A stretch of 64,000 bases of DNA, taken from a phage. The translations under genes and the position numbers were made by a program. The notes under the pieces are model-generated. The model was not told the origin of the DNA, searched no databases, and worked only from the letters and a program-made list of their open reading frames with translations. Location of the stretch: the NCBI GenBank assembly GCA_033286805.1, contig GCA_033286805.1_4727.1. One strand, written 5' to 3'. Positions 1,991-52,245 of the stretch are shown piece after piece. Every line of letters begins with the position of its first letter. The stretch's first letter is position 1.

Positions 1991-3331
1991 ATGATTAGTA
2001 TTTTTGGTTTTTATACGTACAAAGGGTACGCTAATAACCACCCAAAAACCACGGCGAAATTCGGTGAGTTCAGTCAGCACAGTGCTACGTTCAGTCGCGA
2101 AATCGGCATCTATACCAACACGGCGTACGCACGTACGACCTTATTAGTGTTGAATGCCGAAAACGAAGCTGGTGAAGCACAAACGCTGAATGACGACACC
2201 GCAGGCCGTATTCTTCAGGTTGGTCAATGGTTGCTGGAAAAAGCCGCATCGGGCGAAATCCAAGATGACCGAGACCAAGTTATTGGCTACCTAAAAGACG
2301 ACTTCACAACGTATTTGGATTCTATCGACATCCCGACACCCACCACCGATGGGAACGTCTATCTACCGGCGTGGATCAGTTTCAAGATAACCGCCACGGG
2401 TGATGTTGTCAAGATATGGCTGTCTGATAGCGTATTCCAAAGTCAATATCCAAAATACGAATACGAAGTCGTTCCTCCTGTTCCTAAGGATCAGTTAGAC
2501 ACCTTCTTCGAAGATCTGGCAACGTTGAAGAAACTGGTTGACAGTCGAAGCAGCGAGAAACTGACCGAAGAAATCAACGAGGTGCGCGACCAATTCCCAG
2601 ACACACAATTGTGGACGAAAACCTATAAAGCGTACGATTACACCGACGATTCGAAGTACATTGATACCGATTGGACGGTGATTATCTACGGTGCAGCAGG
2701 TAACAATATTGATAATATCAAGGAGTTCCTGCAAAACTGGATTCTTAGCAATAGCACGCATGGACGCCCAGACTGGGAAATCGTTCTGCCGGATCTTTTT
2801 ATCCCGACAGAACACATCTTCATTCCAATCTGGAACCGCCACAGCGCTCCGGAGATGACCAATCAGGCACGTATCTATAGTCCCATCTTCGATGATTCGT
2901 TGATGGATACCTACCTGAAAAACTTTGCTGATGGTTACGGCGAAACCGCCGAAGTCCGTAAGTCGCTTCAAGCGGTGCCGACGTTGTGGCGCTCGATCGG
3001 TTTCTTAAGTGTTGGTAACTCACGTAACCGTGATGGTAAACTTAAGTTCTACGACCGCTGGCCACAATACGCGCTCATCAGCACAACCAGCATCGACATT
3101 AACCGTATCGACGATGCGACACGTGAATTCATCACCTTCACTTACGAAATGCTGAAACTGGCAGAATCGCTGACCGAAGACGACCCGGTACCGTTGGGTT
3201 ATAGTCGTGTTACGCGTGGTAGCAATAGCTTCTTAGCGAAAAGCCATAACGATGTTCAGTATCTCTTCTTAACAAAAGAAGCGTTCCTGAAGAAAATGCC
3301 GGATGAAGCCGACACGCCTGTTGGAGGTTGA
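1991..3331 (+). CDS. hypothetical protein (446 aa)
   Basis: ATG 1991 with GAGGA SD 6 nt upstream; long ORF; no recognisable motif. Confidence 0.6.
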   Translation: MISIFGFYTYKGYANNHPKTTAKFGEFSQHSATFSREIGIYTNTAYARTTLLVLNAENEAGEAQTLNDDTAGRILQVGQWLLEKAASGEIQDDRDQVIGYLKDDFTTYLDSIDIPTPTTDGNVYLPAWISFKITATGDVVKIWLSDSVFQSQYPKYEYEVVPPVPKDQLDTFFEDLATLKKLVDSRSSEKLTEEINEVRDQFPDTQLWTKTYKAYDYTDDSKYIDTDWTVIIYGAAGNNIDNIKEFLQNWILSNSTHGRPDWEIVLPDLFIPTEHIFIPIWNRHSAPEMTNQARIYSPIFDDSLMDTYLKNFADGYGETAEVRKSLQAVPTLWRSIGFLSVGNSRNRDGKLKFYDRWPQYALISTTSIDINRIDDATREFITFTYEMLKLAESLTEDDPVPLGYSRVTRGSNSFLAKSHNDVQYLFLTKEAFLKKMPDEADTPVGG

Positions 3332-3333
3332 TT

Positions 3334-3960
3334 ATGGCTGTAACACGCATGACGCCAAGTCCCGGTGCGGTCGGGGTATTCACAGTATCAGCGCCGTTTT
3401 CCGTTGGTGCGTCAACGCTATATACCGTTACAGCGTTACGCCGATTCAGCGAAGTCATCGGTAGTGGAATCGATCTATTTACGGAACTGTACGAACCGTT
3501 ATCAATAGACAAATCCACTTTCGAAGCGCATCTCGAAGCGAATGCTTATCTCGTCACGTTGCAACCGGATTATGGTGCGCCCGTACTGGTACCTGATACG
3601 TATATCACGTCGTACCCAAAGAACGATTCCTTGCGGTATCGTCGCATTATTCTGGGTATCGATTTCGGGCCTCTTCCTCCCGGTCTTGACCTTTCGTATT
3701 TAACAACGATATTGAAAGGTAAGGCCAGTGATATTCTTGGTGTCGAACCTGAAGTTAAAACGATGGAAATCACTCTCGATGATACCGTTACTCAGGAACA
3801 ACATCAGATAAACGAAGCCCGTCGTCAGGCTGCGATAAAAGAGCGGGATACCATTTACGCACGCTGTGAAACGCAAGAGAAGCAGATAACGGCTTTACTT
3901 GCAACCCAAAAGCAACTTATCAAATTGCTTCAAGACGCCGGTATCAATCCGACACCTTAA
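3334..3960 (+). CDS. hypothetical protein
   Basis: ATG 3334 preceded by GGAGG; starts 2 nt after upstream stop; ends 7 nt before hairpin at 3967. Confidence 0.55.
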   Translation: MAVTRMTPSPGAVGVFTVSAPFSVGASTLYTVTALRRFSEVIGSGIDLFTELYEPLSIDKSTFEAHLEANAYLVTLQPDYGAPVLVPDTYITSYPKNDSLRYRRIILGIDFGPLPPGLDLSYLTTILKGKASDILGVEPEVKTMEITLDDTVTQEQHQINEARRQAAIKERDTIYARCETQEKQITALLATQKQLIKLLQDAGINPTP

Positions 3961-3966
3961 CATATT

Positions 3967-3998
3967 CCCTCCTCCTTCCCTGTTGGGTTGGAGGAGGG
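3967..3998. terminator. CCTCC/GGAGG palindromic hairpin (H1)
   Basis: ccctcctcc-tt-ccc-tgtt-ggg-tt-ggaggaggg, then TTATGCCGTCA; between convergent genes 3334-3960(+) and 4071-4772(-); A13 tract at 4013-4025. Confidence 0.65.
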
Positions 3999-4070
3999 TT
4001 ATGCCGTCAAGCAAAAAAAAAAAAATGATAGTCACAGGCTCTCCAATGAAGGAGAGCCGTGACCGTCAGT

Positions 4071-4772
4071 TTAAGATGCAGATAATCTCGCGTACTTCTG
4101 GCGAACATGGTTCTTACGGCGAACTTCGTCGTCCTCGTCACGCCATTCGAGGTAAGCAACGAATCGACGTAACTGCGCCGCCGTCATCGTTGACGAGCGG
4201 TCTTCTACGTCTAGAACAACGTAACGAACATCACCAACACCATCGCAATCAACGTAACTGAATACCAAAAGACCATCACCGTATTCAACGATGGTAACTT
4301 CGAATCGTTTATTGAACAAATAAAACAGTTCCGATTCAATGATCATCGGAATGACGCATAAATCAGCACGATTGAGGATTTCCATCATCACCCGTAACGC
4401 GCGAGGAGTATGGCGAGCGAACTGGTCGTTAAAACGTTGTTTCATCGCTTGTTCCACGCCATCTGTTTTTGTTCCAAACCAAGGACGTATTACAGATTTC
4501 GGTGGTGTGAGACGAAAGCGATATGCTTGTATAAACAACAGAATATCAGCGACGTTAGGAAATTCTTCCTGGTCTTCGTATATCTTGCGGATAATATCCG
4601 GAATCGTAACCATCAAGTATTTCTTATCGCCTCCCACTTTCTCGAGATTAGCAATATGTCCTTCTACCATAGGCTGGTAAACGAAATTATACCAATGACG
4701 GTATCTTTCGGTGCGTTGGTAGTTTGGGATAAAATTAAGAATAATACTCACTGCGCGTTTTAATGGGTTCAT
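4071..4772 (-). CDS. hypothetical protein (233 aa)
   Basis: Long ORF on dominant strand, last gene of a minus-strand block, converging on hairpin at 3967-3998. Confidence 0.55.
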   Translation of the reverse strand: MNPLKRAVSIILNFIPNYQRTERYRHWYNFVYQPMVEGHIANLEKVGGDKKYLMVTIPDIIRKIYEDQEEFPNVADILLFIQAYRFRLTPPKSVIRPWFGTKTDGVEQAMKQRFNDQFARHTPRALRVMMEILNRADLCVIPMIIESELFYLFNKRFEVTIVEYGDGLLVFSYVDCDGVGDVRYVVLDVEDRSSTMTAAQLRRFVAYLEWRDEDDEVRRKNHVRQKYARLSAS

Positions 4773-4786
4773 CGGAAGGATCCTTC

Positions 4787-5200
4787 TTATGTTTTAATAT
4801 GCACATCGTCAATCCCCTCGGTAATCCAGCCGATGGGAAGGACAATCGTTGTTATCGTGTTATGGGTGTAATGATTGAGAAAGTGGAAATAGTAATTTTT
4901 GTTAGACTGTTCGATCCGTAGGTCGAGGTGCGCGTCTTCAGGTAACCGTAACCAAGCACCGTACAGTTCATTAAACTTACGCTGAATTTTACCGGGGTTC
5001 ATTGGAACCCCACGACCACGACGATGTAGCTGACGTAATGATTCAATCAAACACTCAGAGATACCCGTTGTCGTTCCGTTATCGCTTGTATCAATAACGA
5101 TGAACTCTCGTGACCCACGACCGAGATAAAAGCCAGCGACAAAAGCTGCAGCAACAAAAATTATCGTACCGATACCAATATACCAATAGTAAGTATCCAT
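4787..5200 (-). CDS. small membrane protein (N-terminal TM helix)
   Basis: ATG 5200 with GTGAGG SD; hydrophobic stretch IGIGTIIFVAAAFVAGFYL. Confidence 0.5.
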   Translation of the reverse strand: MDTYYWYIGIGTIIFVAAAFVAGFYLGRGSREFIVIDTSDNGTTTGISECLIESLRQLHRRGRGVPMNPGKIQRKFNELYGAWLRLPEDAHLDLRIEQSNKNYYFHFLNHYTHNTITTIVLPIGWITEGIDDVHIKT

Positions 5201-5211
5201 AACGACCTCAC

Positions 5212-5739
5212 TTATACCCAATAGTCGGCAAGCGGTTTTACCTTATTAATGGGCAACTGTACTTTACCGATGTTCTCTACATCCGCATCAGCGTAGAGAA
5301 CAATTTTATCATCGTCTCTTTCCCAACGAATAATAAATCGACCAGGAAGAAGATTACTCTGTTCAAGAGACGCAGTAACCTGCTGCGTCAAAACAGACAA
5401 CCAAGCAGGCATCAATGTTGCAATATCTAAGTCATTTGACCACTCAGCACGTTGCTCCACTGGACGTAACATACGTTCGACGGTGCGTTGAACCGTTGCG
5501 GTGATATAGCCTTTATCTTCGTCACTGATTGGATCAGGACGAGACACAAAACGTTCAGCAGGCTTGTGGGTAATATATTCATGCAAATCGATGAGTGGTG
5601 TTGTCATAGTACTCGCTCCATCAGAATGTAATTGGGTAACCCGTAGGGTTGTCTGCATGCTATTCAGAAGCGCAAAAGCGCCATAAACAACAACGATACC
5701 AAGTATAGCCAAAACAGAAATCATTAACGTGTATTGCAT
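5212..5739 (-). CDS. membrane protein (N-terminal TM helix)
   Basis: ATG 5739 with GGGGAG SD at 6 nt; TM segment LMISVLAILGIVVVYGAFALL. Confidence 0.5.
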   Translation of the reverse strand: MQYTLMISVLAILGIVVVYGAFALLNSMQTTLRVTQLHSDGASTMTTPLIDLHEYITHKPAERFVSRPDPISDEDKGYITATVQRTVERMLRPVEQRAEWSNDLDIATLMPAWLSVLTQQVTASLEQSNLLPGRFIIRWERDDDKIVLYADADVENIGKVQLPINKVKPLADYWV

Positions 5740-6497: not shown

Positions 6498-6521
6498 GAA
6501 TGAAATCTCGCTGGCTTACTT

Positions 6522-6545
6522 CACTTAAGTAATATAGCCGTGAAA
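6522..6545 (-). promoter_or_regulatory. conserved 24-bp promoter-like box, copy a
   Basis: Plus reading CACTTAAGTAATATAGCCGTGAAA; minus reading TTTCACGGCTATATTACTTAAGTG; 25 nt upstream of ATG of 5841-6497(-). Confidence 0.55.
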
Positions 6546-7469: not shown

Positions 7470-7475
7470 TCGTCG

Positions 7476-7508
7476 AGCCTGTCCTTCGGGGCAGGCTTTT
7501 ATGCTGTT
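7476..7508 (+). terminator. intrinsic terminator, TTCG-tetraloop family (T1)
   Basis: agcctgtcc-ttcg-gggcaggct then TTTTATGCTGTTA; directly after stop of 6648-7469. Confidence 0.75.
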
Positions 7509-7577: not shown

Positions 7578-7694
7578 ATGTTACTCATTTTAATGGAGAG
7601 AGCATTGCTGGCGGGTATCTGCGCATTCTCTGTTAAACACGCTGTTGCTATCATGGCTGAAGAAAGGCGTAATACGCATAATGTATTACGCTGA
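7578..7694 (+). CDS. small hydrophobic peptide (38 aa; MLLILMERALLAGICAFSVKHAVAIMAEERRNTHNVLR)
   Basis: Not in ORF track (<60 aa). Strong SD AAGGAGGG 8 nt upstream of ATG 7578; hydrophobic N-terminal half. Confidence 0.3.
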   Translation: MLLILMERALLAGICAFSVKHAVAIMAEERRNTHNVLR

Positions 7695-7711
7695 AAACAC
7701 TGTGTGCATTA

Positions 7712-8113
7712 GTGTATGACGAGAAATCGTCGAGGCCCCCGTCTTCACGAGGGCCAACACCTATGCATGATTATTCATCGTCTGTTAAACAAAAGGTTAT
7801 AAACATGAGCAATTTGAACGTTGAATTTACTTCAACAACGCCTGTCATGAATGGTGTTGGCACTGAAACCAAAATCGTATTAGAACCCATTCCAGGGTTA
7901 CGCGATCTCGGTGATTTTTATCCACTGATGCCGCGTATACGGAAGGCCTTAAACAGTATCGATCTTGATTCCAATAAAGATTTCCAACACGATACAGAAA
8001 ATACCGATCATGTATTGCTGCCATCAGGGATCGCAAAATTCACCTACACGCAAACATTGAAAGCCTCCGATGGTGAAATCCGTCGTTTTATCGTTGAAGT
8101 AGAAAGCGCATAA
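7712..8113 (+). CDS. hypothetical protein (start uncertain; alternative ATG at 7805)
   Basis: ORF ending just before hairpin 8119-8148; no motif recognised. Confidence 0.45.
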   Translation: MYDEKSSRPPSSRGPTPMHDYSSSVKQKVINMSNLNVEFTSTTPVMNGVGTETKIVLEPIPGLRDLGDFYPLMPRIRKALNSIDLDSNKDFQHDTENTDHVLLPSGIAKFTYTQTLKASDGEIRRFIVEVESA

Positions 8114-8118
8114 AAACC

Positions 8119-8148
8119 ATCCTCCCAACCCGTAAGGGAAGGGAGGAT
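8119..8148. terminator. CCTCC/GGAGG palindromic hairpin (H2)
   Basis: atcctccc-aa-ccc-gtaa-ggg-aa-gggaggat then AAATATGCCGTTA; convergent junction 7712-8113(+)/8167-8796(-); TTTTTAT on minus side. Confidence 0.7.
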
Positions 8149-8166
8149 GAAATATGCCGTTAAACG

Positions 8167-14040: not shown

Positions 14041-15129
14041 ATGAGCGACCTGGCAACAGACAATCGCACAAAAGGGAGTCAGCTAGCTCCAGACAACAAC
14101 GTAAGCGTTTTCCGTATCTTTGCCTTGGGTACTGTTGCTGCCGACTTTTCCAATAAAAGTCTGGAGGAAGATCCTAACCAAACGCTGGAGGTCTTTCTTG
14201 ATGAGATGATGTCAGGCGCTGATGGGAAAGTTGAAGCGGCGGGAAGCGTTAAAGAAGTCAGTGCAACAGACGCTCAAGGAAACAGCTATACGGCGAAAGC
14301 GGCAACAACAACCAGCGTACAGTGTTACTGGTTACCCTTCGGCAGTAACCGGATGACAGCACCTAACTTGAGGAAAGGTCAGCGTGTGGTGGTTTGGCGT
14401 ACCGCCGATGAAGAACAGCTCTACTGGCAACCCAAAGGAGGGGATAGCGAGCTGATGACCATGGAATCGGTTATCCTCACCGTCAGCGCACGTCCTAGCG
14501 CTAAGAAGGACCGTAAATCGATTTCAACGGAAGACTGCTATTACCTAATGGTTGATACCTTCCTCAAGAAGGCGGTTATCGGCACCAGCGCACAGCTTGG
14601 TGAAGTTACCCAAGTTTACATGGAACTTAATCTGGACGAGGGTTACCTACAGGTTGCGGACAGCGTCCATCAAAATCTGCTGTTACTCCATTTCGTTGAA
14701 CATATGCTGCGTTATCAAAACCAGGATGACAGCATCATCGACGTGACAAAAAAGAACATCACATTCCAGTGCGAGGATACGCTCAAAGCAATCGCTAAGA
14801 ACGATATCCGAATGAAAGCAAAAAACATTTATACCGAATGTGAGAACTTCGAGCGTACCAGCAAAACAGAAAGCGTTACGAGTCAGAATGTTTCTTTGAA
14901 GTGTGATCGTTACACCGCGCAAGTATCAGGACAGACCATGTTTAAATGTCCGAATACGGTATTCACTGGGGCTGTAAGCTTCACAGGTGAAGACGGAAAC
15001 ACGATGACGTTGAATGGGAACTTCATACACGTCGCAGGCTCTTGGCGTTCACCAACCGGAACAAACGTATACACCCACGATCACGGCGGTGTAGACCGTG
15101 GCAGCGGTCGTACAGATCCGTTCCAATAA
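14041..15129 (+). CDS. hypothetical protein (362 aa)
   Basis: ATG 14041 with AGGAG SD 8 nt upstream; followed by A-tract and hairpin 15150-15183. Confidence 0.6.
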   Translation: MSDLATDNRTKGSQLAPDNNVSVFRIFALGTVAADFSNKSLEEDPNQTLEVFLDEMMSGADGKVEAAGSVKEVSATDAQGNSYTAKAATTTSVQCYWLPFGSNRMTAPNLRKGQRVVVWRTADEEQLYWQPKGGDSELMTMESVILTVSARPSAKKDRKSISTEDCYYLMVDTFLKKAVIGTSAQLGEVTQVYMELNLDEGYLQVADSVHQNLLLLHFVEHMLRYQNQDDSIIDVTKKNITFQCEDTLKAIAKNDIRMKAKNIYTECENFERTSKTESVTSQNVSLKCDRYTAQVSGQTMFKCPNTVFTGAVSFTGEDGNTMTLNGNFIHVAGSWRSPTGTNVYTHDHGGVDRGSGRTDPFQ

Positions 15130-15149: not shown

Positions 15150-15183
15150 CCTCCTTCCCTAGCCGTCAAGGCCGGGGAAGGAG
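15150..15183. terminator. CCTCC/GGAGG palindromic hairpin (H3, variant loop)
   Basis: cctccttccc ... gggaaggagg 10-bp stem with inner gcc/ggc stem; A8 tract upstream, T-rich downstream; convergent junction 14041-15129(+)/15200-15589(-). Confidence 0.7.
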
Positions 15184-15199
15184 GATTATAGTTTATTTA

Positions 15200-21047: not shown

Positions 21048-21590
21048 ATGGCCTTAGACTTTAACAAAGCAGCGAAATCCCTTCTGCTTGATCTTATCAA
21101 CACCAAAGCAACCCGTGCACTGGCCGAACAAGAACTGCAGTTCGGTACCCCGGGGGCATCTTCCGAACATGAAAAGAACACCGTTATTCAGCTGGACGCT
21201 GCGCCTGAAGCAGAAAACCTGCAGGGTAGTCAGCAGTTCTACTACGATCGTCTGGCTCTGTCCGAAGTTTTCGCTGATGTAACCGGCGACGTTACTTTCG
21301 AACTGCCGCACGGTACCGACAGCATCCAGGCTTCTGAACTGGTAAGCAAGCTGGTCACCAAATTCGGCCTGGCTTCCCTGAACGGTGAAATCAAAGAAGA
21401 AACCTTCCAGCTGTCTGCTGGTACTGTTGGTCAGGTAACTCTGAGTGCGATCGATAATGGTCTGGTATATACCGGCACTCTGCAGGTTGCTCTGACCTAT
21501 GCAGCAGCACCGAAAGACCAACTGGCAACTGTTCTGGCGGATAACGTAGCTGATGGCTTCGTGAAACCGACCGTTAGCGTTGTTGGCTAA
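21048..21590 (+). CDS. abundant virion protein, paralog family member B
   Basis: ATG 21048 with GAGGA SD; strong codon bias; blocks QQFYYDRLAL ... LVYTGTLQV. Confidence 0.7.
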   Translation: MALDFNKAAKSLLLDLINTKATRALAEQELQFGTPGASSEHEKNTVIQLDAAPEAENLQGSQQFYYDRLALSEVFADVTGDVTFELPHGTDSIQASELVSKLVTKFGLASLNGEIKEETFQLSAGTVGQVTLSAIDNGLVYTGTLQVALTYAAAPKDQLATVLADNVADGFVKPTVSVVG

Positions 21591-21602: not shown

Positions 21603-21643
21603 AGAGCAATAGTATGGGTTTTGTACAGCTCGGCTATTGCTCT
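21603..21643 (+). terminator. hairpin with 10-bp perfect stem and 21-nt loop
   Basis: agagcaatag ... ctattgctct; 13 nt after stop of 21048-21590. Confidence 0.35.
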
Positions 21644-21792: not shown

Positions 21793-21825
21793 CCCCTCCT
21801 CATCCGTTATTGGGTGAGGAGGGGT
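21793..21825. terminator. CCTCC/GGAGG-type hairpin (H6, divergent)
   Basis: cccctcctca-tcc-gttat-tgg-gtgaggagggg; between 21048-21590(+) and endolysin 21888-22523(-). Confidence 0.55.
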
Positions 21826-30633: not shown

Positions 30634-31914
30634 ATGTATACATTGGTAAAAACTTACGGATTACCCGTAGGTTCTGGCACGGCCTGGACAGCGCTTGAGG
30701 CGGGTGAAAGTGTCCTGAGTACGTTGTTCTCAACGTATCAAAAACTCAAGATCCAGGTCCATGAAAGCTATGCTGACCAGCAACAAGTTATTGATCTGTA
30801 CGCGTTCCAATCCGAGCTTCAAAACAGCAGTGATACGCTCAATGCGTGGCTGAAGGCGAAATCGGACGCACATACTAACCTCCGTGGACAGCCAGGCGAG
30901 CTGTCGATTAAAACCCACAAGCTTTATTGTCACGACGTTATTACAGTAGGCTTTCTCCCTAAAGTCGGTAATAGCGGCTATCATCCGAGCAACGCGATCC
31001 CTGAGTCGGAACGCACTGATATCCTGTTGACGAAAGCGAATACGAACTACGAAAATATCGGTAAGCATTGCTTGTTTACCGTAGGTGGTTATGTTCATCC
31101 TCACGTTTACGGTAAAGACGTCGGTGTCTATATCCAGGGCGGGTTCAAGACGGCACAGCGTAGCCAAGAAAACGATATCGGCATGATTGATTTTAGCCGT
31201 ATCGGGAGTTTGGAAATCCATGCCATCACAGAAGAGATGATTGCTGATTCCACGAAGCTCTTGCCGTATAAGGACGAGATGTACTTGCGGTTACCGCGCA
31301 AGGTCGCCGAAGATGAAACCGTCGCGCTGGTGTTCGGGGGATATTTACATCTTCTTGACGATTGTTACACGATCGTTAGTGACACGACAGCAAAAATAAA
31401 CTGCATTAACATGTTTCTTTATGAAAGATACTTCCGTTCCCGCAAATACCTTGATCTAACGTCTCTTGGTATTCTGTTGAACGAAGAAGACCCGCAGTCC
31501 GATATTGTTGCCAATCGTTTATTGTCCGATAAAGCATTAAAAGCGTGGGTGACGCATCCTTGCAGTTTCTGGGTGTATATCAAAGCAACATCGATTCAGG
31601 TTACGCAAGAACCTTTACCACGAAGTGGTGTACCAGGACAATATTTCTTAGGTAAGAAACCGGAAGGACTGATTCGAGCCGATCTTGGTGAGTTACCGGC
31701 TTACGTGCAGACCTATGAAAAACCGTTATGGGTACTTCACTCGCGCTGGGGACTTCGTAAGAACATGTTGTTTGAAAACACATTGTACAAGCACACCCGC
31801 GTTAAGCGGCTTAACGATACGCCTTATCTTCACCAGGTCTGGTTGGAAACGCACGCGACGTTGCAGACAGTACACAAGCTCGAATTGATCGATTCCAGTC
31901 AGAAAAACAAATAA
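30634..31914 (+). CDS. hypothetical protein (426 aa)
   Basis: ATG 30634 with AAGGGGG SD; plus-strand island between fibre cassette and paralog genes; ends before hairpin 31925-31956. Confidence 0.6.
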   Translation: MYTLVKTYGLPVGSGTAWTALEAGESVLSTLFSTYQKLKIQVHESYADQQQVIDLYAFQSELQNSSDTLNAWLKAKSDAHTNLRGQPGELSIKTHKLYCHDVITVGFLPKVGNSGYHPSNAIPESERTDILLTKANTNYENIGKHCLFTVGGYVHPHVYGKDVGVYIQGGFKTAQRSQENDIGMIDFSRIGSLEIHAITEEMIADSTKLLPYKDEMYLRLPRKVAEDETVALVFGGYLHLLDDCYTIVSDTTAKINCINMFLYERYFRSRKYLDLTSLGILLNEEDPQSDIVANRLLSDKALKAWVTHPCSFWVYIKATSIQVTQEPLPRSGVPGQYFLGKKPEGLIRADLGELPAYVQTYEKPLWVLHSRWGLRKNMLFENTLYKHTRVKRLNDTPYLHQVWLETHATLQTVHKLELIDSSQKNK

Positions 31915-31924: not shown

Positions 31925-31956
31925 CCCTCCTCCAACCCGTAAGGGAAGGAGGAGGG
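31925..31956. terminator. CCTCC/GGAGG palindromic hairpin (H7)
   Basis: ccctcctcc-aa-ccc-gtaa-ggg-aa-ggaggaggg then AATATGCTGTTA; convergent junction 30634-31914(+)/31966-32871(-). Confidence 0.75.
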
Positions 31957-38056: not shown

Positions 38057-38083
38057 GATCGGTCCTCCAAGGAGCCAGTGTAA

Positions 38084-40993
38084 ATGAACGATATAAATAA
38101 AGGGCGCGTCGCCCTCGAACGTCAAATGAGCAATAATGACGTTGCGAAGGCACTCATGAACAAATTTGTCGCTCCTGCTCCGCAGTCACGTCTTTATAAT
38201 ACACGTGATGCGGAAGGAGCGAACGGTCGTTTCGGGTTAGTTGTTCCCGACCAAATGACGATGAACACGGTTACGCGTGCGACCGCGACAAACATCGAGG
38301 ATAATAAAAACATCCTCGAGTTGTTCCCTGAACTTAAACGCGTGATGCAGATCTATGTTGCCGCGTTGACGAACCCTAACGATCTTAAGACGGTCGAGAT
38401 GTTTATCGACAGCGAAGATTTCCCCGGCAGAGTCGCAGAAATCGTTCAGCCGATGATCGATACCATCGACACGCATTTTAAGAATATCTATAAAATAAAG
38501 ACGCTTATCCCTCGTATCATCGAAGACGTCTTCTTTATCAAGGGCAGTTATAACTTCGTTGTTCTGCCGGAAAGCACGCTCGACCGCGCCATTAATGGTA
38601 ACGGTCAACTGAAACTTGAAGAATACGGATTTAAAGACAACCATTTTGCAAGCTGGGGACTTTTAGGTAACGACAGTCGCAAACGCCACGAAAATCAACT
38701 ACCCGCGACGGTTTCGATGGAAGATTATTTCTCGGGTGTTAATGAAACCATACCGTACGATCCTGTTGTTCGCATAGACAGCATTAAGTTTACCAATACC
38801 CTGCTTCGCGATAAGGACGGTAAATTCATTGAAGCGAAGATCGATATTCCGGATATGGTTACGGTTGTCGATAACCCAGACATCCTCCGCATGCCTATTC
38901 TGCATCAACGTCGAGCAGCGACAGCAGTGCAGCGTGCGTTACGCGCAAACACGTTAGGAGGTAGTGGTTTGGTAACGCTGTCAGGCGATCCGACCCTAAC
39001 CGCTAACCGACGTGAGCTGTCGCAAGAACAGGTTAACGAGATCTGGAATAAACTCAACATCCAACGTCACACCAAGGTATCTCCCGTTTACGCGCTGGCA
39101 ACCCCAGATACACTCGATCGTCAAAGCGTCGGTCATCCTGGTGTGATGCACGTACCACCTGAGGCATTAGAACCCGTACATGCGCCTGGCGATCCGGAGA
39201 ACCATATCGGGTATTTGGTTCAGTTGGATGAGTTTGGTTATCCGGTGCGTTTGGTTGAAGATGCTGCGTATTACAAGCAGTTGGAAGGGCGGTTGTCGAA
39301 GATCACCGCAGATATCGCAGGTACGTCAAGCAACGGCATGGCGAGCGAGATGATTGGTGCGGCCAAGAACATGATCCAAGGTACGTCATGTAATCAGGTA
39401 GACATGTCGGCCTTCGTATCGTCGTACGAATCGCTGATGCAACGTTACATCGTTGAACGTATTGTCAACGGTTATCTTGGCAGTGCGGTGGAAATCGGCG
39501 CGACATCATCGTTTTACCTATCGATGCTTGCCCGTAGCCTCGCTCATAAGCAGACCCGTGTTTTGTTTATTCCTCGAGAGATGGTGACTTACATCGCTTA
39601 TGAATACAACAAATACGGTATCGGTCGTTCGCTGCTTGAAAGTACGAAGATGATCTCGTCGCAACGAGCCATGCTCATGGTTCAAGAACTGATGGCGAAA
39701 ATCAAAAGTTCGTTGAACTATACGACGCTAAGCGTAATGCTTGAAGACACCGACAGAAACCCGGTCGATACCGTCGAACAAGCGCTGCATAGTTTCGCTC
39801 GTGTCTACCAGTCTGGTTTCCCTCTGGGTGAAACTAACCCGATGGATATCATCAACGCGTACGAACGAAGCTCGATTCGATTGAAGGTTGAGGGGAATAA
39901 CCCACGCTTCCCGAAATTGAATACAGACGTCAGTGTTGAGCAGCGTAACTATCAGTCTCCTGATAATGAGCTGATGGATCGTTACCGCCGTGACCATTTC
40001 ATGGGTTTGGGAGTTTCTCCAGAGATTATCGATACTTCCTACCAATCTGAATTCGCAGCTTCTGTGATTACAGCTAACGCGATGCAAGAGAAACAGTTCA
40101 CGGTTTGTCGTGAGGTGATCACGAATGGGTTATCGGACCACATCAAGAAATACACGGCATACAGTCCCGTGTTGTTGACGTCGTTACGAAACACGGTTCG
40201 TGCGAACATGTCTAAGCTCTCCCAGGCACAATTGAAGCAGCTTTTTGGTAGCGATTTCGAAAACGGTGTTATCCGTAACGTTAACGCCTATCAGGAGATT
40301 GACGACCAATCAGCAACAATGGATCTGGATTACACTAAACCAGAAGTCCAGGAAGTTATTGCCGATGCTTATGTGTCCATGTTCTTAAACAGCCTGCGTG
40401 TGCGTTTACCGGATAGCAATGCTCGTCGCCTTGAAGATCAGGTACGTGAATATAATCAGTACAAGGAAGCGATTACTGCGCAACTTGATGATTATTTAAC
40501 ACCTGATTACGTCATGGGTCTGGGTGGGGTTGATGAAACAACGCTGCAGATGATCCGCGCATGCATTATTGGTACCGCGATGCGTACGTGGGCAAAAGAG
40601 AACAACTTCAATCAGGAGCTGGCTGATCTCTTCAGTCTTGACGATAAGAAGAATGCCGTGCAAGATTGGAAACGTATGTCCATGGAACATATTGAAGTCA
40701 TGGGTAAATGCATGGGTGATTTTGCATTGTATATTCAGAATCTGACGAAGAAGATTGAAGAGAAGATGGGAGCTCAAGCACAGGACGGCAGCGTTTCATC
40801 TGATGGTTCGTGGTCATCCGATTCAAGTAGCGATACCGGTTCTTCTGATGACTTCGGTGGCGATGACGATTTCGGAGATACCGATTTCGATACCGAAACG
40901 ATGGAGGAAACCTCAACAGAAGAAACAACCACATCTGAGGAAACGACTACCGACACAACGTCAGAAGACGACACTTCAGGTGGCGTTGTCTAA
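38084..40993 (+). CDS. large hypothetical protein (969 aa) with acidic S/T/D/E-rich C-terminal tail
   Basis: ATG 38084 with AAGGAG SD; C-terminal 80 aa low-complexity acidic tail; followed by hairpin 41034-41067. Confidence 0.65.
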   Translation: MNDINKGRVALERQMSNNDVAKALMNKFVAPAPQSRLYNTRDAEGANGRFGLVVPDQMTMNTVTRATATNIEDNKNILELFPELKRVMQIYVAALTNPNDLKTVEMFIDSEDFPGRVAEIVQPMIDTIDTHFKNIYKIKTLIPRIIEDVFFIKGSYNFVVLPESTLDRAINGNGQLKLEEYGFKDNHFASWGLLGNDSRKRHENQLPATVSMEDYFSGVNETIPYDPVVRIDSIKFTNTLLRDKDGKFIEAKIDIPDMVTVVDNPDILRMPILHQRRAATAVQRALRANTLGGSGLVTLSGDPTLTANRRELSQEQVNEIWNKLNIQRHTKVSPVYALATPDTLDRQSVGHPGVMHVPPEALEPVHAPGDPENHIGYLVQLDEFGYPVRLVEDAAYYKQLEGRLSKITADIAGTSSNGMASEMIGAAKNMIQGTSCNQVDMSAFVSSYESLMQRYIVERIVNGYLGSAVEIGATSSFYLSMLARSLAHKQTRVLFIPREMVTYIAYEYNKYGIGRSLLESTKMISSQRAMLMVQELMAKIKSSLNYTTLSVMLEDTDRNPVDTVEQALHSFARVYQSGFPLGETNPMDIINAYERSSIRLKVEGNNPRFPKLNTDVSVEQRNYQSPDNELMDRYRRDHFMGLGVSPEIIDTSYQSEFAASVITANAMQEKQFTVCREVITNGLSDHIKKYTAYSPVLLTSLRNTVRANMSKLSQAQLKQLFGSDFENGVIRNVNAYQEIDDQSATMDLDYTKPEVQEVIADAYVSMFLNSLRVRLPDSNARRLEDQVREYNQYKEAITAQLDDYLTPDYVMGLGGVDETTLQMIRACIIGTAMRTWAKENNFNQELADLFSLDDKKNAVQDWKRMSMEHIEVMGKCMGDFALYIQNLTKKIEEKMGAQAQDGSVSSDGSWSSDSSSDTGSSDDFGGDDDFGDTDFDTETMEETSTEETTTSEETTTDTTSEDDTSGGVV

Positions 40994-41033
40994 ACGGATG
41001 TAAAAAAAATAACACATAGTTAACCTTCTCCCC

Positions 41034-41067
41034 AACCCGTAAGGGAAGGGGAGAAGGGCTATGCGCT
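41034..41067. terminator. CCTCC/GGAGG palindromic hairpin (H8)
   Basis: ccttctcccc-aa-ccc-gtaa-ggg-aa-ggggagaagg then GCTATGCGCTAT; A8 tract upstream; convergent junction 38084-40993(+)/41075-41350(-). Confidence 0.7.
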
Positions 41068-47439: not shown

Positions 47440-47473
47440 TTTTTTCTATTCGCAACGATAAACGGCATAGAAA

Positions 47474-47503
47474 CCTCCCCCAACCCTTACGGGCTGAGGG
47501 AGG
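47474..47503 (-). terminator. CCTCC/GGAGG-type hairpin (H9)
   Basis: cctccccc-aa-ccc-ttac-ggg-ct-gagggagg; ~100 nt downstream of 740-aa gene stop and 35 nt upstream of promoter box 47416-47439. Confidence 0.65.
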
Positions 47504-47602
47504 CTGACTTATGTATCACGGTGCCGGATGAATGTCCGGTGCAATGAAACCATCCGCAACGTTGTCGTCAAGAATATCATCCAACGAAGCAGCTACGGTA
47601 GT

Positions 47603-49825: not shown

Positions 49826-49974
49826 TGAAAGTATCCTTTACAGAATTAACTTATATAAGTCGGTCGATAGACCATAGCGTACACGCGTGCATGCGCCACT
49901 ATAGTATCAGTAAACACTTACCGTTGTTTAGGCTGTGATACAACACTAAAAATGCCGCATAACTTTTCCCTACG

Positions 49975-50595
49975 TCATAAACGACGCAGGCGATAATGGA
50001 TGGAACGATTGGTGCAATATGAACGGAACAGCGGCAATTGCGCAACTTCCGCAAGACTCATATTAATTCGCAGGTGTTCAATAACGGCGCTGTAGTTATC
50101 AGCAATACGATCGCTCAATAACTCTTCTGCCAATAAAGGAAGACAATCGACAACAATCGCGATCACATCCTCATTAACATAACGCACCCGAACACTCAAC
50201 GGACGTTTGTCTGGGCTGTAAGTTGGATCCGCCAAACGACGTTCAATATCACGCGGATAGCTCGTCAGTAAATGGTAATAACCATTGTCATAACGATTGA
50301 TGTACTCACACAGCACATCAACATTCTTCTCTGGCGGCAAACCTGTTTCGTCATAGTGATACGCAAACATACCACCAAGCAGGTTGTTAAGATGAACTGC
50401 AGGGTTCGCTTGTTCGTGTTCTTTCGTGATGAAGAAAGGCACGTTTTGAGCTGCGAAATAAAAACCTACATCATTGGGCGATAGTATGCCGAAAAGACTT
50501 TTAGGGTCTAATAACACCTGTAAGTCATCACGCGCATTTCGAATAATCGCGTGTTCTACCCAATTCGGAACGACGAGATATCGGAGTTCCTTCAT
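49975..50595 (-). CDS. hypothetical protein (206 aa)
   Basis: ATG 50595 with AGAGG SD; divergent from 50635 gene. Confidence 0.55.
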   Translation of the reverse strand: MKELRYLVVPNWVEHAIIRNARDDLQVLLDPKSLFGILSPNDVGFYFAAQNVPFFITKEHEQANPAVHLNNLLGGMFAYHYDETGLPPEKNVDVLCEYINRYDNGYYHLLTSYPRDIERRLADPTYSPDKRPLSVRVRYVNEDVIAIVVDCLPLLAEELLSDRIADNYSAVIEHLRINMSLAEVAQLPLFRSYCTNRSIHYRLRRL

Positions 50596-50634
50596 TATGA
50601 TTACCTCTTTGCAAGTATCGAAAGGATTGAGTCG

Positions 50635-52245
50635 ATGGACCCAAAACAGATAGCCATTAAGATTATTACGTTACTGTTTCGTAATGCACAATTGAACCAT
50701 CCCGATCCCAGTACGATCGAACATGTTAAATCCGTCTTAGATAAAGTCGAACCCCCGAAAAACCATCTCGCTACAGACGTAGATAGAGAGGTTTTCAGCA
50801 ACCTGATGAACACCATTCATTGGATGCTGGAACAACCGTTATCGGAACCTTTCGATAAACAACAGTTGTTACAAAGGATACGTTTAGATTGCCTTGAACA
50901 AAGCAATCTTTACGAGATTCTTGCCGACGGACTGTACGATATCGAAGACGACGCTCATATCAGTAAGGTCTGTTCGCTCTATTACAACGAATTACGTAAT
51001 CTGATTACCCGTCGTCGTGTTTTCGAAACCTTTAGAAACACGTACATGGATATCAGTAACGGGCGACTTGGGGATAAAGAATTTTTCGATGCGATGGCGA
51101 ATCTGAAATTATCGCTAGACAGTATCGAAATGGATACCGAAAATCCCGAAGAGATGGCGTGTATGATTGACGGCTTTATCGCTGACAGCGAAGACGATAT
51201 CGAGAAAGTCGAACGTATGTTCGTCAAAGCGATGGAACGTAACAGTCCTGAAGGTGGATTTGTAACCGGCTGGCAAGGCTTTAATAAAATGTTGGGGTCG
51301 GTCGGTGTTTTACGTCGCGGTACCTTAGGACTGATTGGTGCAATGCAGCACCGGAACAAGTCAGGCGTGTTGTTAAAACTGTTCACACATCTGGCATTGT
51401 ACAACAAACCCCATTTCTTTTTCCCGGAGCGAGCAAAGAAAGCATTACTGATTCATTTGTCGACAGAAAACGAAGTGGAAGAAAACACGCTTCAGATATA
51501 CAAGAACATGCGAGAACAGGAAACAGGCGAATATGTCGATATTCGTAAGATTGACCCTCGCGAGGCATCACGTTATGTGTTGAAGGTGTTCAACGATGCG
51601 GGTTTCTCTGTTTGTATGCGTCGTGTTGATGGGATGAGTTACAAACAACTCGCTAATCTCATCGACCATTTCGAACGCATGGGTTATGAGGTCATGGCGT
51701 TGTTCATCGACTATCTGAAAATGTTCTCATCGGAAGGGCTGGATAGAAATGGACCGACCGGCGCATGGCTCCAAGAACTCTTTAACAAAGTCCGTAACCT
51801 CTGCAGCGTTAAACGTATTTTAGGTATGACCGTACACCAGCTGTCATCCGATGCGAAGATGCGTGCACGTGATGGCAACGATGAAGAGTTCGTTGACCAA
51901 GTCGCAGGTTTAAGTTACTGGGATGGTTGTAAAGGGATTGACCGTGAGATTGACCTCGAAGTGATTGTTGATATCGTTAAGGAACCGGGCAAACGTCAAA
52001 GCTGGCAGGTCTTTGCGTTAGGGAAAGACCGTCAACCGGATAACGGTTCAACGAAACCTGAAGACAAACATTTCGCGATGCCATTCCAAACCATCGGGAT
52101 GCTTCCTGATGATTACGGTAAGAAAGCAGTATATTGCCGCAAGGTTGGCGGACAACCTGTCTCCGAGGGAGGTAAAGGTCCGTGGAACAAGTTCGATGAA
52201 AACGCAGCACCGAGTAATGAATTACAATTTGATTTAGAATTTTAA
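50635..52245 (+). CDS. hypothetical protein (536 aa)
   Basis: ATG 50635 with AAGGA SD at 8 nt; followed by A9 tract and hairpin 52271-52302. Confidence 0.6.
   Translation: MDPKQIAIKIITLLFRNAQLNHPDPSTIEHVKSVLDKVEPPKNHLATDVDREVFSNLMNTIHWMLEQPLSEPFDKQQLLQRIRLDCLEQSNLYEILADGLYDIEDDAHISKVCSLYYNELRNLITRRRVFETFRNTYMDISNGRLGDKEFFDAMANLKLSLDSIEMDTENPEEMACMIDGFIADSEDDIEKVERMFVKAMERNSPEGGFVTGWQGFNKMLGSVGVLRRGTLGLIGAMQHRNKSGVLLKLFTHLALYNKPHFFFPERAKKALLIHLSTENEVEENTLQIYKNMREQETGEYVDIRKIDPREASRYVLKVFNDAGFSVCMRRVDGMSYKQLANLIDHFERMGYEVMALFIDYLKMFSSEGLDRNGPTGAWLQELFNKVRNLCSVKRILGMTVHQLSSDAKMRARDGNDEEFVDQVAGLSYWDGCKGIDREIDLEVIVDIVKEPGKRQSWQVFALGKDRQPDNGSTKPEDKHFAMPFQTIGMLPDDYGKKAVYCRKVGGQPVSEGGKGPWNKFDENAAPSNELQFDLEF

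What the first reader, a model, noticed from the sequence alone, without database searches (positions are those of the whole stretch)
1991..52245. Nine plus-strand genes embedded as islands in a minus-strand genome, each closed by a hairpin
The plus-strand genes (1991, 3334, 6648, 7578, 7712, 14041, 21048, 30634, 38084, 50635) occur singly or in pairs and every island is followed within 25 nt by a terminator. Two of them (38084 and 50635) start 28-40 bp from a divergent minus-strand start, leaving no room for conventional promoters. Such counter-oriented, individually terminated genes are often independently regulated or recently acquired.
Basis: inference. Interest (0 to 1): 0.4.

Follow-up and report, generated by a model that had tools for sequence, protein, structure and literature searches.

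The report
Counter-strand core genes with two-sided terminators
The window is part of a Goslar-like nucleus-forming jumbo phage, and its plus-strand "islands" are mostly ancient core genes (portal, baseplate spike, wedge, replicative helicase) in a conserved orientation, each ending at the terminator hairpin typical of this phage family, so the layout is real but ordinary for these phages.

Summary
Ten (not nine) plus-strand genes form seven islands in a minus-strand genome. Every island ends at a very stable hairpin, and two islands start 27 and 39 nt from a divergent gene.

The window is 97.7% identical to Escherichia phage Goslar (Chimalliviridae). The hairpins are one sequence family, not generic terminators: a pyrimidine-rich 5' arm, a purine-rich 3' arm, no U-tract, then TTATGCYG. 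This matches the conserved terminator motif mapped by long-read RNA sequencing in phiKZ and 201phi2-1.

The family is not specific to the islands, because it also closes many co-directional units. At co-directional junctions the TATG lies only on the transcribed side (14/16 against 1/16). At convergent junctions it usually lies on both sides (8/14), so the island-closing hairpins look like bidirectional terminators.

"Recently acquired" fails for five of the seven islands. Portal, spike, gp30, DnaB-like helicase and gp188/187 are core genes present in about 285 phage records. Their strand arrangement, including the short divergent gaps, recurs in Erwinia phage RAY and its relatives and in phiKZ-type phages. 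Only gp005-007 is restricted to the Goslar lineage.

Promoters remain unmapped. This is a new member of a known kind, of low to moderate interest.

The parts
1991..3331 (+). Homologue of Goslar gp188, a virion structural protein; first gene of a two-gene island
   Evidence: Intact ORF. phrog_3293, E = 5e-129. Homologues in 287 phage records. The same divergent arrangement occurs in Mortimer and a phiKZ-like phage.
3334..3960 (+). Homologue of Goslar gp187, a lower baseplate wedge protein
   Evidence: phrog_3241. Assigned to the lower wedge in the Goslar cryoEM preprint.
3967..3998 (.). Two-sided family terminator hairpin CCCTCCTCC-TTCCCTGTTGGGTT-GGAGGAGGG, with TATG after the stem on both strands
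   Evidence: (z = -10 for the junction).
4037..4058 (.). Second hairpin of the same junction (GGCTCTCC-AATGAA-GGAGAGCC), 12 nt after the gp001 stop and without TATG; its loop is inverted in a sister genome
6648..7469 (+). gp005 homologue, first gene of the three-gene island that is specific to the Goslar lineage
   Evidence: Only Goslar-type records plus one marginal hit. Weak PHROG match.
7477..7496 (+). One-sided terminator inside the island: GCCTGTCC-TTCG-GGGCAGGC followed by TTTTATGCTGTT
   Evidence: Annotated as a terminator in Goslar.
7578..7694 (+). gp006 homologue, a 38-aa ORF with a strong Shine-Dalgarno sequence
   Evidence: no family match.
7805..8113 (+). gp007 homologue; Goslar gp7 is a virion protein present at more than 200 copies.
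8118..8149 (.). Two-sided family terminator hairpin CATCCTCCC-AACCCGTAAGGGAA-GGGAGGATG
   Evidence: Loop inverted in IMG/VR genome 3300045988.
14041..15129 (+). gp013 homologue, the baseplate spike protein; a single-gene island next to the SbcC-like gene
   Evidence: phrog_3216. Spike in the cryoEM preprint. RAY_21 is counter-oriented next to the RAY SbcC-like gene.
15150..15184 (.). Family hairpin with TATAG instead of TATG on both sides
   Evidence: Annotated as a terminator in Goslar.
21048..21590 (+). gp023 homologue, a DUF7941 protein present at about 2140 copies per virion and a paralogue of the divergent neighbour gp022
21603..21643 (+). Atypical long hairpin 12 nt after the gp023 stop, not of the family type and without TATG
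21793..21824 (.). Family-type hairpin 202 nt after the gp023 stop and 63 nt after the gp024 stop, with TTATAC on the plus side
30634..31914 (+). gp030 homologue (phrog_3337); the divergent pair with gp029 is conserved in RAY and phiKZ
31925..31956 (.). Two-sided family terminator hairpin CCCTCCTCC-AACCCGTAAGGGAA-GGAGGAGGG
38057..38083 (.). 27-nt divergent gap between gp035 and the portal gene, holding only the two opposed Shine-Dalgarno sequences (TCCTCC / AAGGAG)
   Evidence: The orthologous gaps are 32 nt in RAY and 35 nt in phiKZ.
38084..40993 (+). Portal protein (gp036 homologue); a single-gene island
   Evidence: phrog_3004, E = 6e-161. Portal in the cryoEM preprint. Found in 289 phage records. 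Flanked by opposite-strand genes in RAY and phiKZ as well.
41024..41057 (.). Two-sided family terminator hairpin CCTTCTCCCC-AACCCGTAAGGGAA-GGGGAGAAGG
50596..50634 (.). 39-nt divergent gap between gp042 and the helicase gene, beginning with TATG on the plus strand
   Evidence: The orthologous gap in Deimos-Minion is 28 nt.
50635..52245 (+). DnaB-like replicative helicase (gp043 homologue); a single-gene island after the major capsid gene and gp042
   Evidence: phrog_3213, E = 2e-122. Found in 282 records. The same arrangement occurs in Deimos-Minion.
52271..52302 (.). Family hairpin with TATG on the plus side only; its loop is inverted in a sister genome
19964..19995 (-). Same hairpin family at a co-directional junction after gp022, with TATG on the minus side only
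47472..47504 (-). Family-type terminator downstream of the major capsid gene
53956..53987 (-). Family hairpin between gp048 and gp047, with TATG on the minus side only
59902..59931 (-). Simple hairpin plus TTTATGCTGT; the only site in the window that matches the published phiKZ terminator pattern with three or fewer mismatches
6515..6545 (-). Early-promoter-like motif TTTCACGGCTATATTACTTAAGTGA in the gp004|gp005 divergent gap, facing gp004 (minus) and not the island
   Evidence: Further copies, all on the minus strand, lie at about 19241, 47423 and 53904.

Best explanation
The window covers about a quarter of a Goslar-like chimallivirus (nucleus-forming jumbo phage) genome. About 87% of its genes lie on one strand. 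The ten plus-strand genes form seven counter-oriented transcription units.

Five of these units encode ancient core proteins: the gp188/gp187 baseplate and virion proteins, the baseplate spike, gp30, the portal, and the DnaB-like helicase. Their counter-orientation was inherited from the common ancestor of the family.

Each unit ends at the family's own terminator. This is a GC-rich hairpin with a pyrimidine-rich 5' arm and a purine-rich 3' arm. In the Goslar lineage it is usually two-tiered: a 9-bp stem, an AA/AA or TT/TT internal loop, and a CCC-NNNN-GGG cap. The stem is followed within 1-5 nt by TTATGCYG rather than a U-tract.

A plus island always abuts a minus-strand gene tail to tail, so one hairpin serves both incoming polymerases. 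At these junctions the TATG element usually occurs on both strands, making a bidirectional terminator.

Transcription of the islands must start from phage-RNA-polymerase promoters, not sigma-70 promoters. Where the divergent gap is only 27-39 nt, these promoters must lie partly inside the neighbouring coding sequence.

Shown here: gene identity, conservation of orientation, hairpin family, covariation, and strand-specific placement of TATG. Inferred by homology to RNA 3' ends mapped in phiKZ and 201phi2-1: that the hairpins terminate transcription. Not resolved: the promoters.
For: Identity:
- 97.7% nucleotide identity to Goslar over 20 kb.

Hairpin family:
-.
- 99% of stem cells are paired, and 5 of 12 pairs show compensatory double changes (24 cells, against 7.8 +/- 2.0 in shuffles; slid controls 50-67% paired).

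Strand logic:
- TATG lies within 9 nt after the stem on the transcribed side at 14 of 16 co-directional junctions and on the other side at 1 of 16. Background is 1.2%.
- At convergent junctions it lies on the plus side at 11 of 14, on the minus side at 8 of 14, and on both at 8 of 14. Both-sided against co-directional gives Fisher p = 0.004.
- Of 135 TATG[CA]YG sites, 28 are preceded by a perfect hairpin, against 2-6 for permuted control motifs. For 27 of the 28 the nearest upstream gene lies on the same strand; about 20 sit 27-58 nt after its stop codon, and most of the rest lie within coding sequence, hundreds of nt from that stop.
- 15 of 16 convergent gaps carry a hairpin, against 50 of 106 co-directional gaps.

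Published precedent:
- phiKZ terminator motif BCCYCCCCHWWDGGGRRGGBYTTATKYYGT at 61 mapped termination sites, plus 6 bidirectional terminator regions (PMC10914365).
- 201phi2-1 has a similar motif, 15 bidirectional termination sites and 8 terminators validated in vivo (PMC11512511).
- Orthologous junctions in phiKZ, RAY, Deimos-Minion and Mortimer show CATAA-hairpin-TTATGCCG.

Conservation:
-.
- The published 72-gene core genome has conserved gene order, and its block 5 holds the major capsid protein, a helicase and an RNA polymerase beta subunit (PMC10299810).

Functions:
-.

Late co-expression of portal, sheath and major capsid protein:
-.
Against: - No RNA 3'-end or 5'-end data for Goslar-type phages were available, so termination and its bidirectionality are inferred.
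- Three of the seven junctions in the window deviate. The one at 15150 has TATAG on both sides. The gp023 junction has an atypical proximal hairpin, and its family hairpin lies 202 nt away with TTATAC. The one at 52271 has TATG on the plus side only.
- Only one site in the window fits the published phiKZ pattern literally. The rest are a two-tier variant.
- No promoter could be assigned to the islands. The portal gene has no TATG within 160 nt upstream, either here or in RAY.
- In phiKZ the portal/gp035 pair is inverted relative to the nvRNAP gene. What is conserved is the local divergent and convergent pairing, not 'minority strand' status as such.
Confidence: 0.8

Rival explanations
1. One reading: the islands are independently acquired, self-contained modules (moron-like), each brought in with its own promoter and terminator.
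For: - gp005, gp006 and gp007 have no homologues outside Goslar-type genomes.
- That island carries its own internal and terminal terminators.
- The phiKZ transcriptome paper makes the same suggestion for some opposite-strand monocistronic units.
Against: - Five of the seven islands encode family-wide core proteins found in 282-289 records.
- Their orientation is conserved across genera.
- Their composition is not distinct from that of their neighbours.
- All islands are present and identical in layout in the four known Goslar-type genomes.
- The terminators are the genome's general type, not imported ones.
Confidence: 0.1
2. The hairpin plus TATG is a terminator-promoter cassette. The TATG after the stem is a late (nvRNAP) promoter that restarts transcription, so at convergent junctions it would launch antisense RNAs into the opposing gene.
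For: - TATG with G as +1 is the phiKZ late promoter core.
- At about 6 of 16 co-directional junctions the TATG lies 25-48 nt upstream of the next start codon, a typical 5' UTR length.
- Antisense RNAs are reported for phiKZ (as summarised in PMC11077065).
Against: - At convergent junctions there is no gene to serve, yet TATG is present on both strands, which fits a signal read by the arriving polymerase.
- The distance to the next gene varies from 2 to more than 800 nt.
- TATG alone is not sufficient for promoter activity.
- This reading does not exclude the terminator reading.
Confidence: 0.15
3. The hairpins are not terminators. They are RNA 3'-end stabilisers or processing sites, or binding sites for a phage RNA-binding or export factor.
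For: - There is no U-tract.
- The inner cap and flank are conserved well beyond what stem stability needs.
- 3'-end pile-ups alone cannot separate termination from trimming.
Against: - Eight 201phi2-1 terminators stop transcription in a two-reporter trap in vivo.
- The tetraloop is hypervariable, and whole loops flip between sister genomes without loss of the element. This argues against sequence-specific loop recognition.
Confidence: 0.1
4. The repeats are DNA-level elements (REP- or MITE-like mobile palindromes, or recombination sites) whose activity created the strand inversions.
For: - Identical 32-nt copies occur at several loci.
- Loop inversions between sister genomes show that the palindromes are recombinationally or replicatively active.
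Against: - Islands carry a hairpin at the 3' boundary only, never at the divergent boundary, so they are not inversion end-points.
- Placement is tied to stop codons and to the transcribed strand.
- Island orientation predates the Goslar lineage.
Confidence: 0.04

Closest known systems
Conserved phiKZ terminator motif 5'-BCCYCCCCHWWDGGGRRGGBYTTATKYYGT-3' (Putzeys et al. 2024, PMC10914365), and motif A, or the elongated A/B combination, of 201phi2-1 (PMC11512511)
   Same: - Pyrimidine-rich 5' arm and purine-rich 3' arm in a GC-rich hairpin.
- Followed by (T)TATGCYGT rather than a U-run.
- Sits shortly after stop codons.
- Found at many units genome-wide.
- Found between convergent genes as bidirectional terminator regions.
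   Different: - Most copies here are two-tiered: a 9-10 bp stem, a 2x2 A/A or T/T internal loop, and a CCC-tetraloop-GGG cap.
- Only one site in the window fits the published pattern with three or fewer mismatches.
- No RNA-end mapping exists for this lineage.
Bidirectional intrinsic terminators between convergent bacterial genes (own knowledge: a single hairpin flanked by an A-tract and a U-tract)
   Same: One palindromic hairpin in a short convergent gap, with the downstream signal mirrored on both strands.
   Different: The mirrored flank is CATAA...TTATG, not A-tract/U-tract. The polymerases involved are presumably the phage's non-canonical multisubunit RNA polymerases.
Chimalliviridae core genome blocks (Prichard et al. 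2023, PMC10299810)
   Same: The window's portal, major capsid, helicase and nvRNAP-beta region corresponds to a conserved core block with conserved gene order.
   Different: In the passages read, that paper does not describe strand switches or terminators. The conservation of the divergent pairs (gp035|portal, gp029|gp030, gp042|helicase) and their 27-39 nt gaps was checked here.
Phage morons (own knowledge; also invoked in PMC10914365)
   Same: A single gene with its own start and stop signals, embedded among genes of another unit.
   Different: The genes here are essential-type core structural or replication genes with family-wide distribution. Only gp005-007 has the patchy distribution expected of a moron.

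Membership tests
Chimallivirus (phiKZ-type) conserved terminator | GC-rich hairpin with a pyrimidine-rich 5' arm and a purine-rich 3' arm | tested here: met
   36 against 1-5 in shuffles; 99% paired; the compensatory changes are all transitions that keep the pyrimidine/purine asymmetry, with one exception.
Chimallivirus (phiKZ-type) conserved terminator | TTAT(G/T)YYGT directly 3' of the stem on the transcribed strand | tested here: met
   Present on the transcribed side at 14 of 16 junctions, against a 1.2% background.
Chimallivirus (phiKZ-type) conserved terminator | Literal fit to the published IUPAC pattern (7-bp stem, 4-nt loop) | tested here: not met
   one site (59902-59931) with three or fewer mismatches. 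The other copies carry a 14-nt two-tier insert, so they are a lineage variant of the motif.
Chimallivirus (phiKZ-type) conserved terminator | Coincides with mapped RNA 3' ends or a drop in read coverage | not testable with these tools
   No Goslar long-read or Term-seq data were accessible. The supplementary tables of the relevant papers are not held.
Bidirectional terminator at convergent genes | A single hairpin in the convergent gap with the downstream signal on both strands | tested here: met
   In the window, 4 of 7 junctions are two-sided for TATG and one more is two-sided for TATAG. In Goslar 8 of 14 are two-sided, against 1 of 16 at co-directional junctions. Four of six orthologous junctions in other genera are two-sided.
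Bidirectional terminator at convergent genes | Termination observed on both strands | not testable with these tools
   Needs strand-specific 3'-end mapping.
Canonical rho-independent terminator | Hairpin followed by a U-tract | tested here: not met
   no enrichment, and the island hairpins were not detected; 2-5 T in the 8 nt after the stem on the plus side.
Moron / recently acquired autonomous gene | Patchy distribution among related phages | tested here: not met
   Five islands are family-wide. All islands are present in all four Goslar-type genomes. The feature is met only for gp005-007.
Moron / recently acquired autonomous gene | Atypical base composition or codon usage | tested here: not met
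   plus-gene GC (0.417-0.516) spans about the range of the minus genes (lowest 0.381). gp005-007 resemble their minus-strand neighbours gp001-004 and gp008.
Chimalliviridae core genome | Homologues in at least about 90% of family members, with conserved order | tested here: met
   Portal, helicase and gp188 occur in 282-289 records. Neighbourhoods are conserved.

The most novel reading that the evidence does not exclude
The TTATG that follows each hairpin on every strand from which a polymerase arrives is the same four-base non-template-strand element that a core subunit of the phiKZ non-virion RNA polymerase binds at late promoters. That subunit is the beta-like gp123, whose homologue gp039 is encoded in this window at 43993-45792 (PMC12809450; homology).

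The recognition pocket belongs to the core enzyme, not to a releasable sigma factor. An elongating polymerase could therefore re-bind TATG just after making the hairpin, pause there, and be released without a U-tract.

On this reading the family's terminators are 'promoter-element-induced pause' terminators. They would be polymerase-specific and direction-specific, and two-sided copies would give true bidirectional insulation at every strand switch.
Probability: 0.2. Interest if true: 0.65.

Novelty: new member of a known kind. Interest (0 to 1): 0.25.

Why it matters
For annotation, the strand-switch islands in Goslar-type phages should be read as conserved core transcription units, not as imported cargo.

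The hairpin-plus-TTATGCYG rule, one-sided or two-sided, gives a simple way to predict transcription-unit ends in chimalliviruses that lack transcriptome data.

The strand-specific placement of TATG is the one point that could matter more widely. It suggests that the terminator flank is read by the arriving phage polymerase. It also links that flank to the polymerase's known TATG pocket. This makes the termination mechanism of these unusual sigma-less multisubunit polymerases directly testable in vitro.

Tried and rejected
1. Generic sigma-70 promoter and hairpin-plus-T-run scans. No enrichment was found, and the island hairpins were missed. Conventional signals do not describe this genome.

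2. Rfam scan of the whole window. Nothing was found.

3. Search for island promoters.
- k-mer enrichment in upstream gaps recovered only the early-type motif TATATTAC and the terminator flank.
- The early-type weight matrix gave 12 hits, all on the minus strand. Given 12.6% plus genes this is not significant on its own (p about 0.2).
- TATG upstream of the islands is inconsistent. It is present about 34-36 nt upstream of the start codon for gp188 (also in its Mortimer orthologue) and for gp043, but absent within 160 nt of the portal gene here and in RAY.
- The promoters are left unresolved.

4. Per-gene Goslar RNA-seq values and phiKZ start/termination-site tables. The supplements are not held. 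Only the text statement that portal, sheath and major capsid protein are late genes could be used.

5. Search for intermediate relatives that might lack an island. Only three Goslar-type genomes are in IMG/VR, and all have the same layout.

6. The longest plus-strand ORF in the span (47528-49828, 766 aa) was considered as an eleventh plus gene and rejected.
- It is the codon-aligned antisense frame of the major capsid gene.
- The capsid gene uses no TTA, CTA or TCA codons because of extreme codon bias (64 of 67 Leu codons are CTG).
- In Goslar the capsid gene has one such codon, which puts a stop in the corresponding antisense frame.

7. ChmC eCLIP paper. It reports no motif or hairpin binding, so it provides no link.

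Full report
**What the window is.** A 20-kb stretch of the window matches Escherichia phage vB_EcoM_Goslar over its full length at 97.7% identity. Goslar is a 237-kb nucleus-forming jumbo phage of the Chimalliviridae. Window coordinates equal Goslar coordinates plus about 3970-4190. The first 4 kb correspond to the end of the Goslar record, so the window runs across the record's arbitrary ends. Three further Goslar-type genomes are in IMG/VR, including Goslar itself, and are 95-97% identical over the part compared. There are no tRNAs and no Rfam families.

**Check of the observation: genes.** All ten listed plus-strand ORFs are intact. They correspond to Goslar gp188, gp187, gp005, gp006, gp007, gp013, gp023, gp030, gp036 and gp043. 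The title says nine, but the list has ten. The islands are five singles, one pair and one triple. The start given as 7712 is an upstream GTG; Goslar annotates the ATG corresponding to 7805.

**Check of the observation: hairpins and gaps.**
- Each island's 3' junction folds much better than dinucleotide shuffles (z from -3.6 to -10.1, 0 of 200 shuffles as good).
- The seven convergent gaps are among the eight most structured gaps per nucleotide in the window.
- Stop-to-stem distances are 6, 4, 20, 10, 30 and 25 nt for six islands.
- After gp023 there is an atypical hairpin at 12 nt, and the family-type hairpin lies 202 nt away.
- The divergent gaps are 27 nt (gp035|portal) and 39 nt (gp042|helicase).

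**What the hairpins are.** They are copies of one family. The usual form is CCCTCCTCC-AA-CCC-GTAA-GGG-AA-GGAGGAGGG: a 9-10 bp outer stem, a 2x2 internal loop, and a 3-bp cap with a tetraloop. A short spacer and TATGCYG follow.
- The core pattern occurs 9 times in the window, against 0.32 expected.
- In the assembled Goslar genome (247 genes, 31 on the plus strand, 20 plus islands), a strict scan finds 36 perfect hairpins with a pyrimidine 5' arm and a purine 3' arm. Shuffles give 1-5. Nearly all lie in intergenic gaps.
- An alignment of 17 distinct copies shows 99% of stem cells paired. Five of the twelve pairs show compensatory double changes (24 cells, against 7.8 +/- 2.0 in shuffles). Pairing falls to 50-67% when the partner is slid.
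- They lack a U-tract. A generic terminator scan neither finds them nor shows any excess.

**Link to published work.**
- Long-read transcriptomics of phiKZ mapped 133 termination sites. Of these, 61 share the motif 5'-BCCYCCCCHWWDGGGRRGGBYTTATKYYGT-3', a hairpin followed by a TTAT region. Six bidirectional terminator regions lie between convergent genes (PMC10914365).
- Phage 201phi2-1 has a closely similar motif (n = 59) that can be elongated by a second motif. It has 15 bidirectional sites, and eight terminators worked in a reporter trap in vivo (PMC11512511).
- The window's hairpins share the arm asymmetry and the TTATGCYGT flank.
- Only one site, 59902-59931, fits the published pattern literally. 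The rest are a two-tier lineage variant.
- Orthologous junctions elsewhere all read CATAA-hairpin-TTATGCCG, with unrelated stems. These are the junctions after the portal gene in phiKZ and RAY, after the spike homologue in RAY, after the helicase in Deimos-Minion, and after the gp187 homologue in Mortimer.

**The hairpins are not an island feature, but the island versions are special.** The family also closes many co-directional minus-strand units. In the window these lie at 19964, 47472, 53956 and 59912.

In Goslar the TATG element follows the stem as follows (background 1.2%):

| Junction type | Transcribed (minus) side | Other (plus) side | Both sides |
|---|---|---|---|
| Co-directional (minus|minus), n = 16 | 14 | 1 | 1 |

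| Junction type | Plus side | Minus side | Both sides |
|---|---|---|---|
| Convergent (plus|minus), n = 14 | 11 | 8 | 8 |

- Two-sidedness at convergent against co-directional junctions gives Fisher p = 0.004.
- Conversely, 28 of 135 TATG[CA]YG sites are preceded by a perfect hairpin, against 2-6 for permuted control motifs. For 27 of the 28 the nearest upstream gene lies on the same strand. About 20 sit 27-58 nt after its stop codon. Most of the rest lie within coding sequence, hundreds of nt from that stop.
- 15 of 16 convergent gaps carry a hairpin, against 50 of 106 co-directional gaps (p = 3e-4).

The simplest reading is that the flank is part of a signal read by the arriving polymerase. 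Island-closing hairpins would then be bidirectional terminators serving the plus island and the converging minus unit together.

In the window, 3967, 8118, 31925 and 41024 are two-sided for TATG. 15150 is two-sided for TATAG. 52271 and 7477 are armed on the plus side only. The gp023 junction is atypical.

**Are the islands recent acquisitions?**

Functions:
- gp36 is the portal, gp13 the baseplate spike and gp187 a lower wedge protein.
- gp23 is present at about 2140 copies per virion, and gp7 at more than 200 copies (Goslar cryoEM and mass-spectrometry preprint).
- gp43 is a DnaB-like helicase, and gp188 and gp30 belong to full-length jumbo-phage families.

Distribution:
- Portal, helicase and gp188 homologues are found in 289, 282 and 287 phage records, essentially all chimalliviruses.

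Orientation in other genera:
- In RAY the portal is a single gene flanked by opposite-strand homologues of gp035 and gp039, with a 32-nt divergent gap. The gp30 homologue is divergent from the gp29 homologue. The spike homologue RAY_21 is a single counter-oriented gene beside the SbcC-like gene, as here.
- In Deimos-Minion the order is major capsid gene (minus), gp042 homologue (minus), helicase (plus, 28-nt gap), then minus genes.
- In Mortimer the gp188/gp187 pair is a two-gene island after the RNase H gene.
- In phiKZ-type phages the portal (PHIKZ129) is again flanked by opposite-strand genes, with a 35-nt divergent gap. The gp29|gp30 pair is divergent. The helicase heads a short counter-oriented unit.
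- In phiKZ the portal pair is inverted relative to the nvRNAP gene. What is conserved is therefore the local divergent and convergent pairing, not 'minority strand' status as such.

Other points:
- The published core genome (72 genes in seven blocks with conserved order, block 5 holding the major capsid protein, a helicase and an RNA polymerase beta subunit) agrees with this (PMC10299810).
- Composition is unremarkable.
- Published Goslar RNA-seq groups portal and sheath (both plus-strand) with the major capsid protein (minus) as late genes.

'Recently acquired' is therefore refuted for five islands. gp023 is a member of the DUF7941 paralogue family (52 records). gp005-007 has no detectable homologue outside Goslar-type genomes and remains a candidate lineage-specific gain, although gp7 is a virion component.

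**Starts of the islands.**
- The 27-nt gap before the portal gene holds only two opposed Shine-Dalgarno sequences, so the promoters must lie within the neighbouring coding sequences.
- This is not a paradox in this family. Transcription is independent of the host polymerase, and the phiKZ late promoter core is just TATG with G as +1 (PMC4666361).
- A strongly conserved early-type motif, TTTCACGGCTATATTACYTANGTGA, occurs 12 times in Goslar. All copies are on the minus strand and upstream of minus genes, including the nuclear-shell gene. Four lie in the window.
- None faces a plus island, although this is not significant on its own (p about 0.2).
- Candidate TATG sites about 34-36 nt upstream exist for gp188 (also in its Mortimer orthologue) and for the helicase gene. 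None lies within 160 nt of the portal gene.
- The promoters remain unassigned.

**Most novel reading.** A 2026 structure shows that the beta-like core subunit gp123 of the phiKZ nvRNAP binds the non-template-strand TATG (PMC12809450). Its homologue, gp039, is encoded in this window. The pocket is part of the core enzyme. The TTATG placed directly after each hairpin, on exactly the strands from which polymerases arrive, could therefore act as a pause element that replaces the U-tract. This is inference only. The alternative, that the post-hairpin TATG is a restart promoter, does not explain its presence on both strands at convergent junctions, but it is not excluded.

**Verdict.** The pattern is real and non-random. 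It is the normal, conserved architecture of a known phage family, closed by that family's known type of terminator in a lineage-specific two-tier form. It is a new member of a known kind, of low to moderate interest.

Noticed in passing
window 8127-8140, 4045-4050, 15160-15174, 52280-52293 (compared with L015, L021 and L024 from IMGVR_UViG_3300045988_173921): In one sister genome the loop of four of thirteen orthologous terminator hairpins is the exact (in one case near-exact) reverse complement of the window's loop, for example AACCCGTAAGGGAA against TTCCCTTACGGGTT. Arms and flanks are unchanged. These are small hairpin-mediated 'flip-flop' inversions. The tetraloops are also hypervariable (GTAA, ATCA, GTCA, AGCA, GATGA), while no base substitutions were seen in the stems (one copy has a 1-nt shorter G run at the stem-flank boundary).
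   Followed up: partly
window 19151-20011: An 861-nt gap without a credible ORF, also present in Goslar. It holds a family terminator (19964-19995), an early-type promoter motif (about 19241) and six same-strand AGATAA copies within 146 nt (19371-19516, minus strand). This looks like an iteron-like array or a non-coding transcript. There is no Rfam match.
   Followed up: partly
window 47528-49828 (+), antisense to the major capsid gene 47603-49825 (-): A 766-codon open frame exactly antisense to, and codon-aligned with, the capsid gene. It is a shadow ORF. The capsid gene uses no TTA, CTA or TCA codons (64 of 67 Leu codons are CTG; genome-wide these three codons make up 3.3%). The Goslar capsid gene has one such codon, which puts a stop in the corresponding antisense frame.
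   Followed up: yes
window about 6515-6545, 19230-19260, 47410-47440, 53895-53925 (all minus strand): A conserved early-promoter-like motif, TTTCACGGCTATATTACYTANGTGA. All 12 strong copies in Goslar lie on the minus strand, 22-202 nt upstream of minus-strand genes, including the nuclear-shell gene chmA (11 intergenic; the twelfth lies inside the annotated gp047 ORF).
   Followed up: partly
Goslar 49770-49807, 117664-117688, 152270-152306, 166922-166953 (L001, L005, L006); window equivalent 53949-53987: At four co-directional junctions the ATG of the post-hairpin TTATG is the annotated start codon of the next gene. The purine arm (GGGAGRGGG) then sits where its Shine-Dalgarno sequence should be, so the terminator stem would mask the ribosome-binding site in read-through RNA. 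Some of these tiny ORFs (for example the 31-aa gp167) may instead be annotation artefacts.
   Followed up: no
alignment A1 (17 hairpin copies from the window and Goslar): Stem covariation is almost only C-G to U-A, so the 5' arm stays pyrimidine and the 3' arm stays purine on both strands. The arms read like anti-Shine-Dalgarno (CCUCC) and Shine-Dalgarno (GGAGG) sequences. The reason for the asymmetry is unexplained.
   Followed up: no
window 1-20000: Sigma-70-like promoter matches are fewer than in shuffles (21 against 33.3 +/- 5.5). This is consistent with a genome that is not transcribed by the host polymerase.
   Followed up: no
window 3999-4036: The window reads straight across the ends of the Goslar GenBank record (gp187, then an A13 run, then gp001), as do both metagenomic sister genomes. 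The deposited Goslar termini at the poly-A run are therefore not a conserved physical end.
   Followed up: partly
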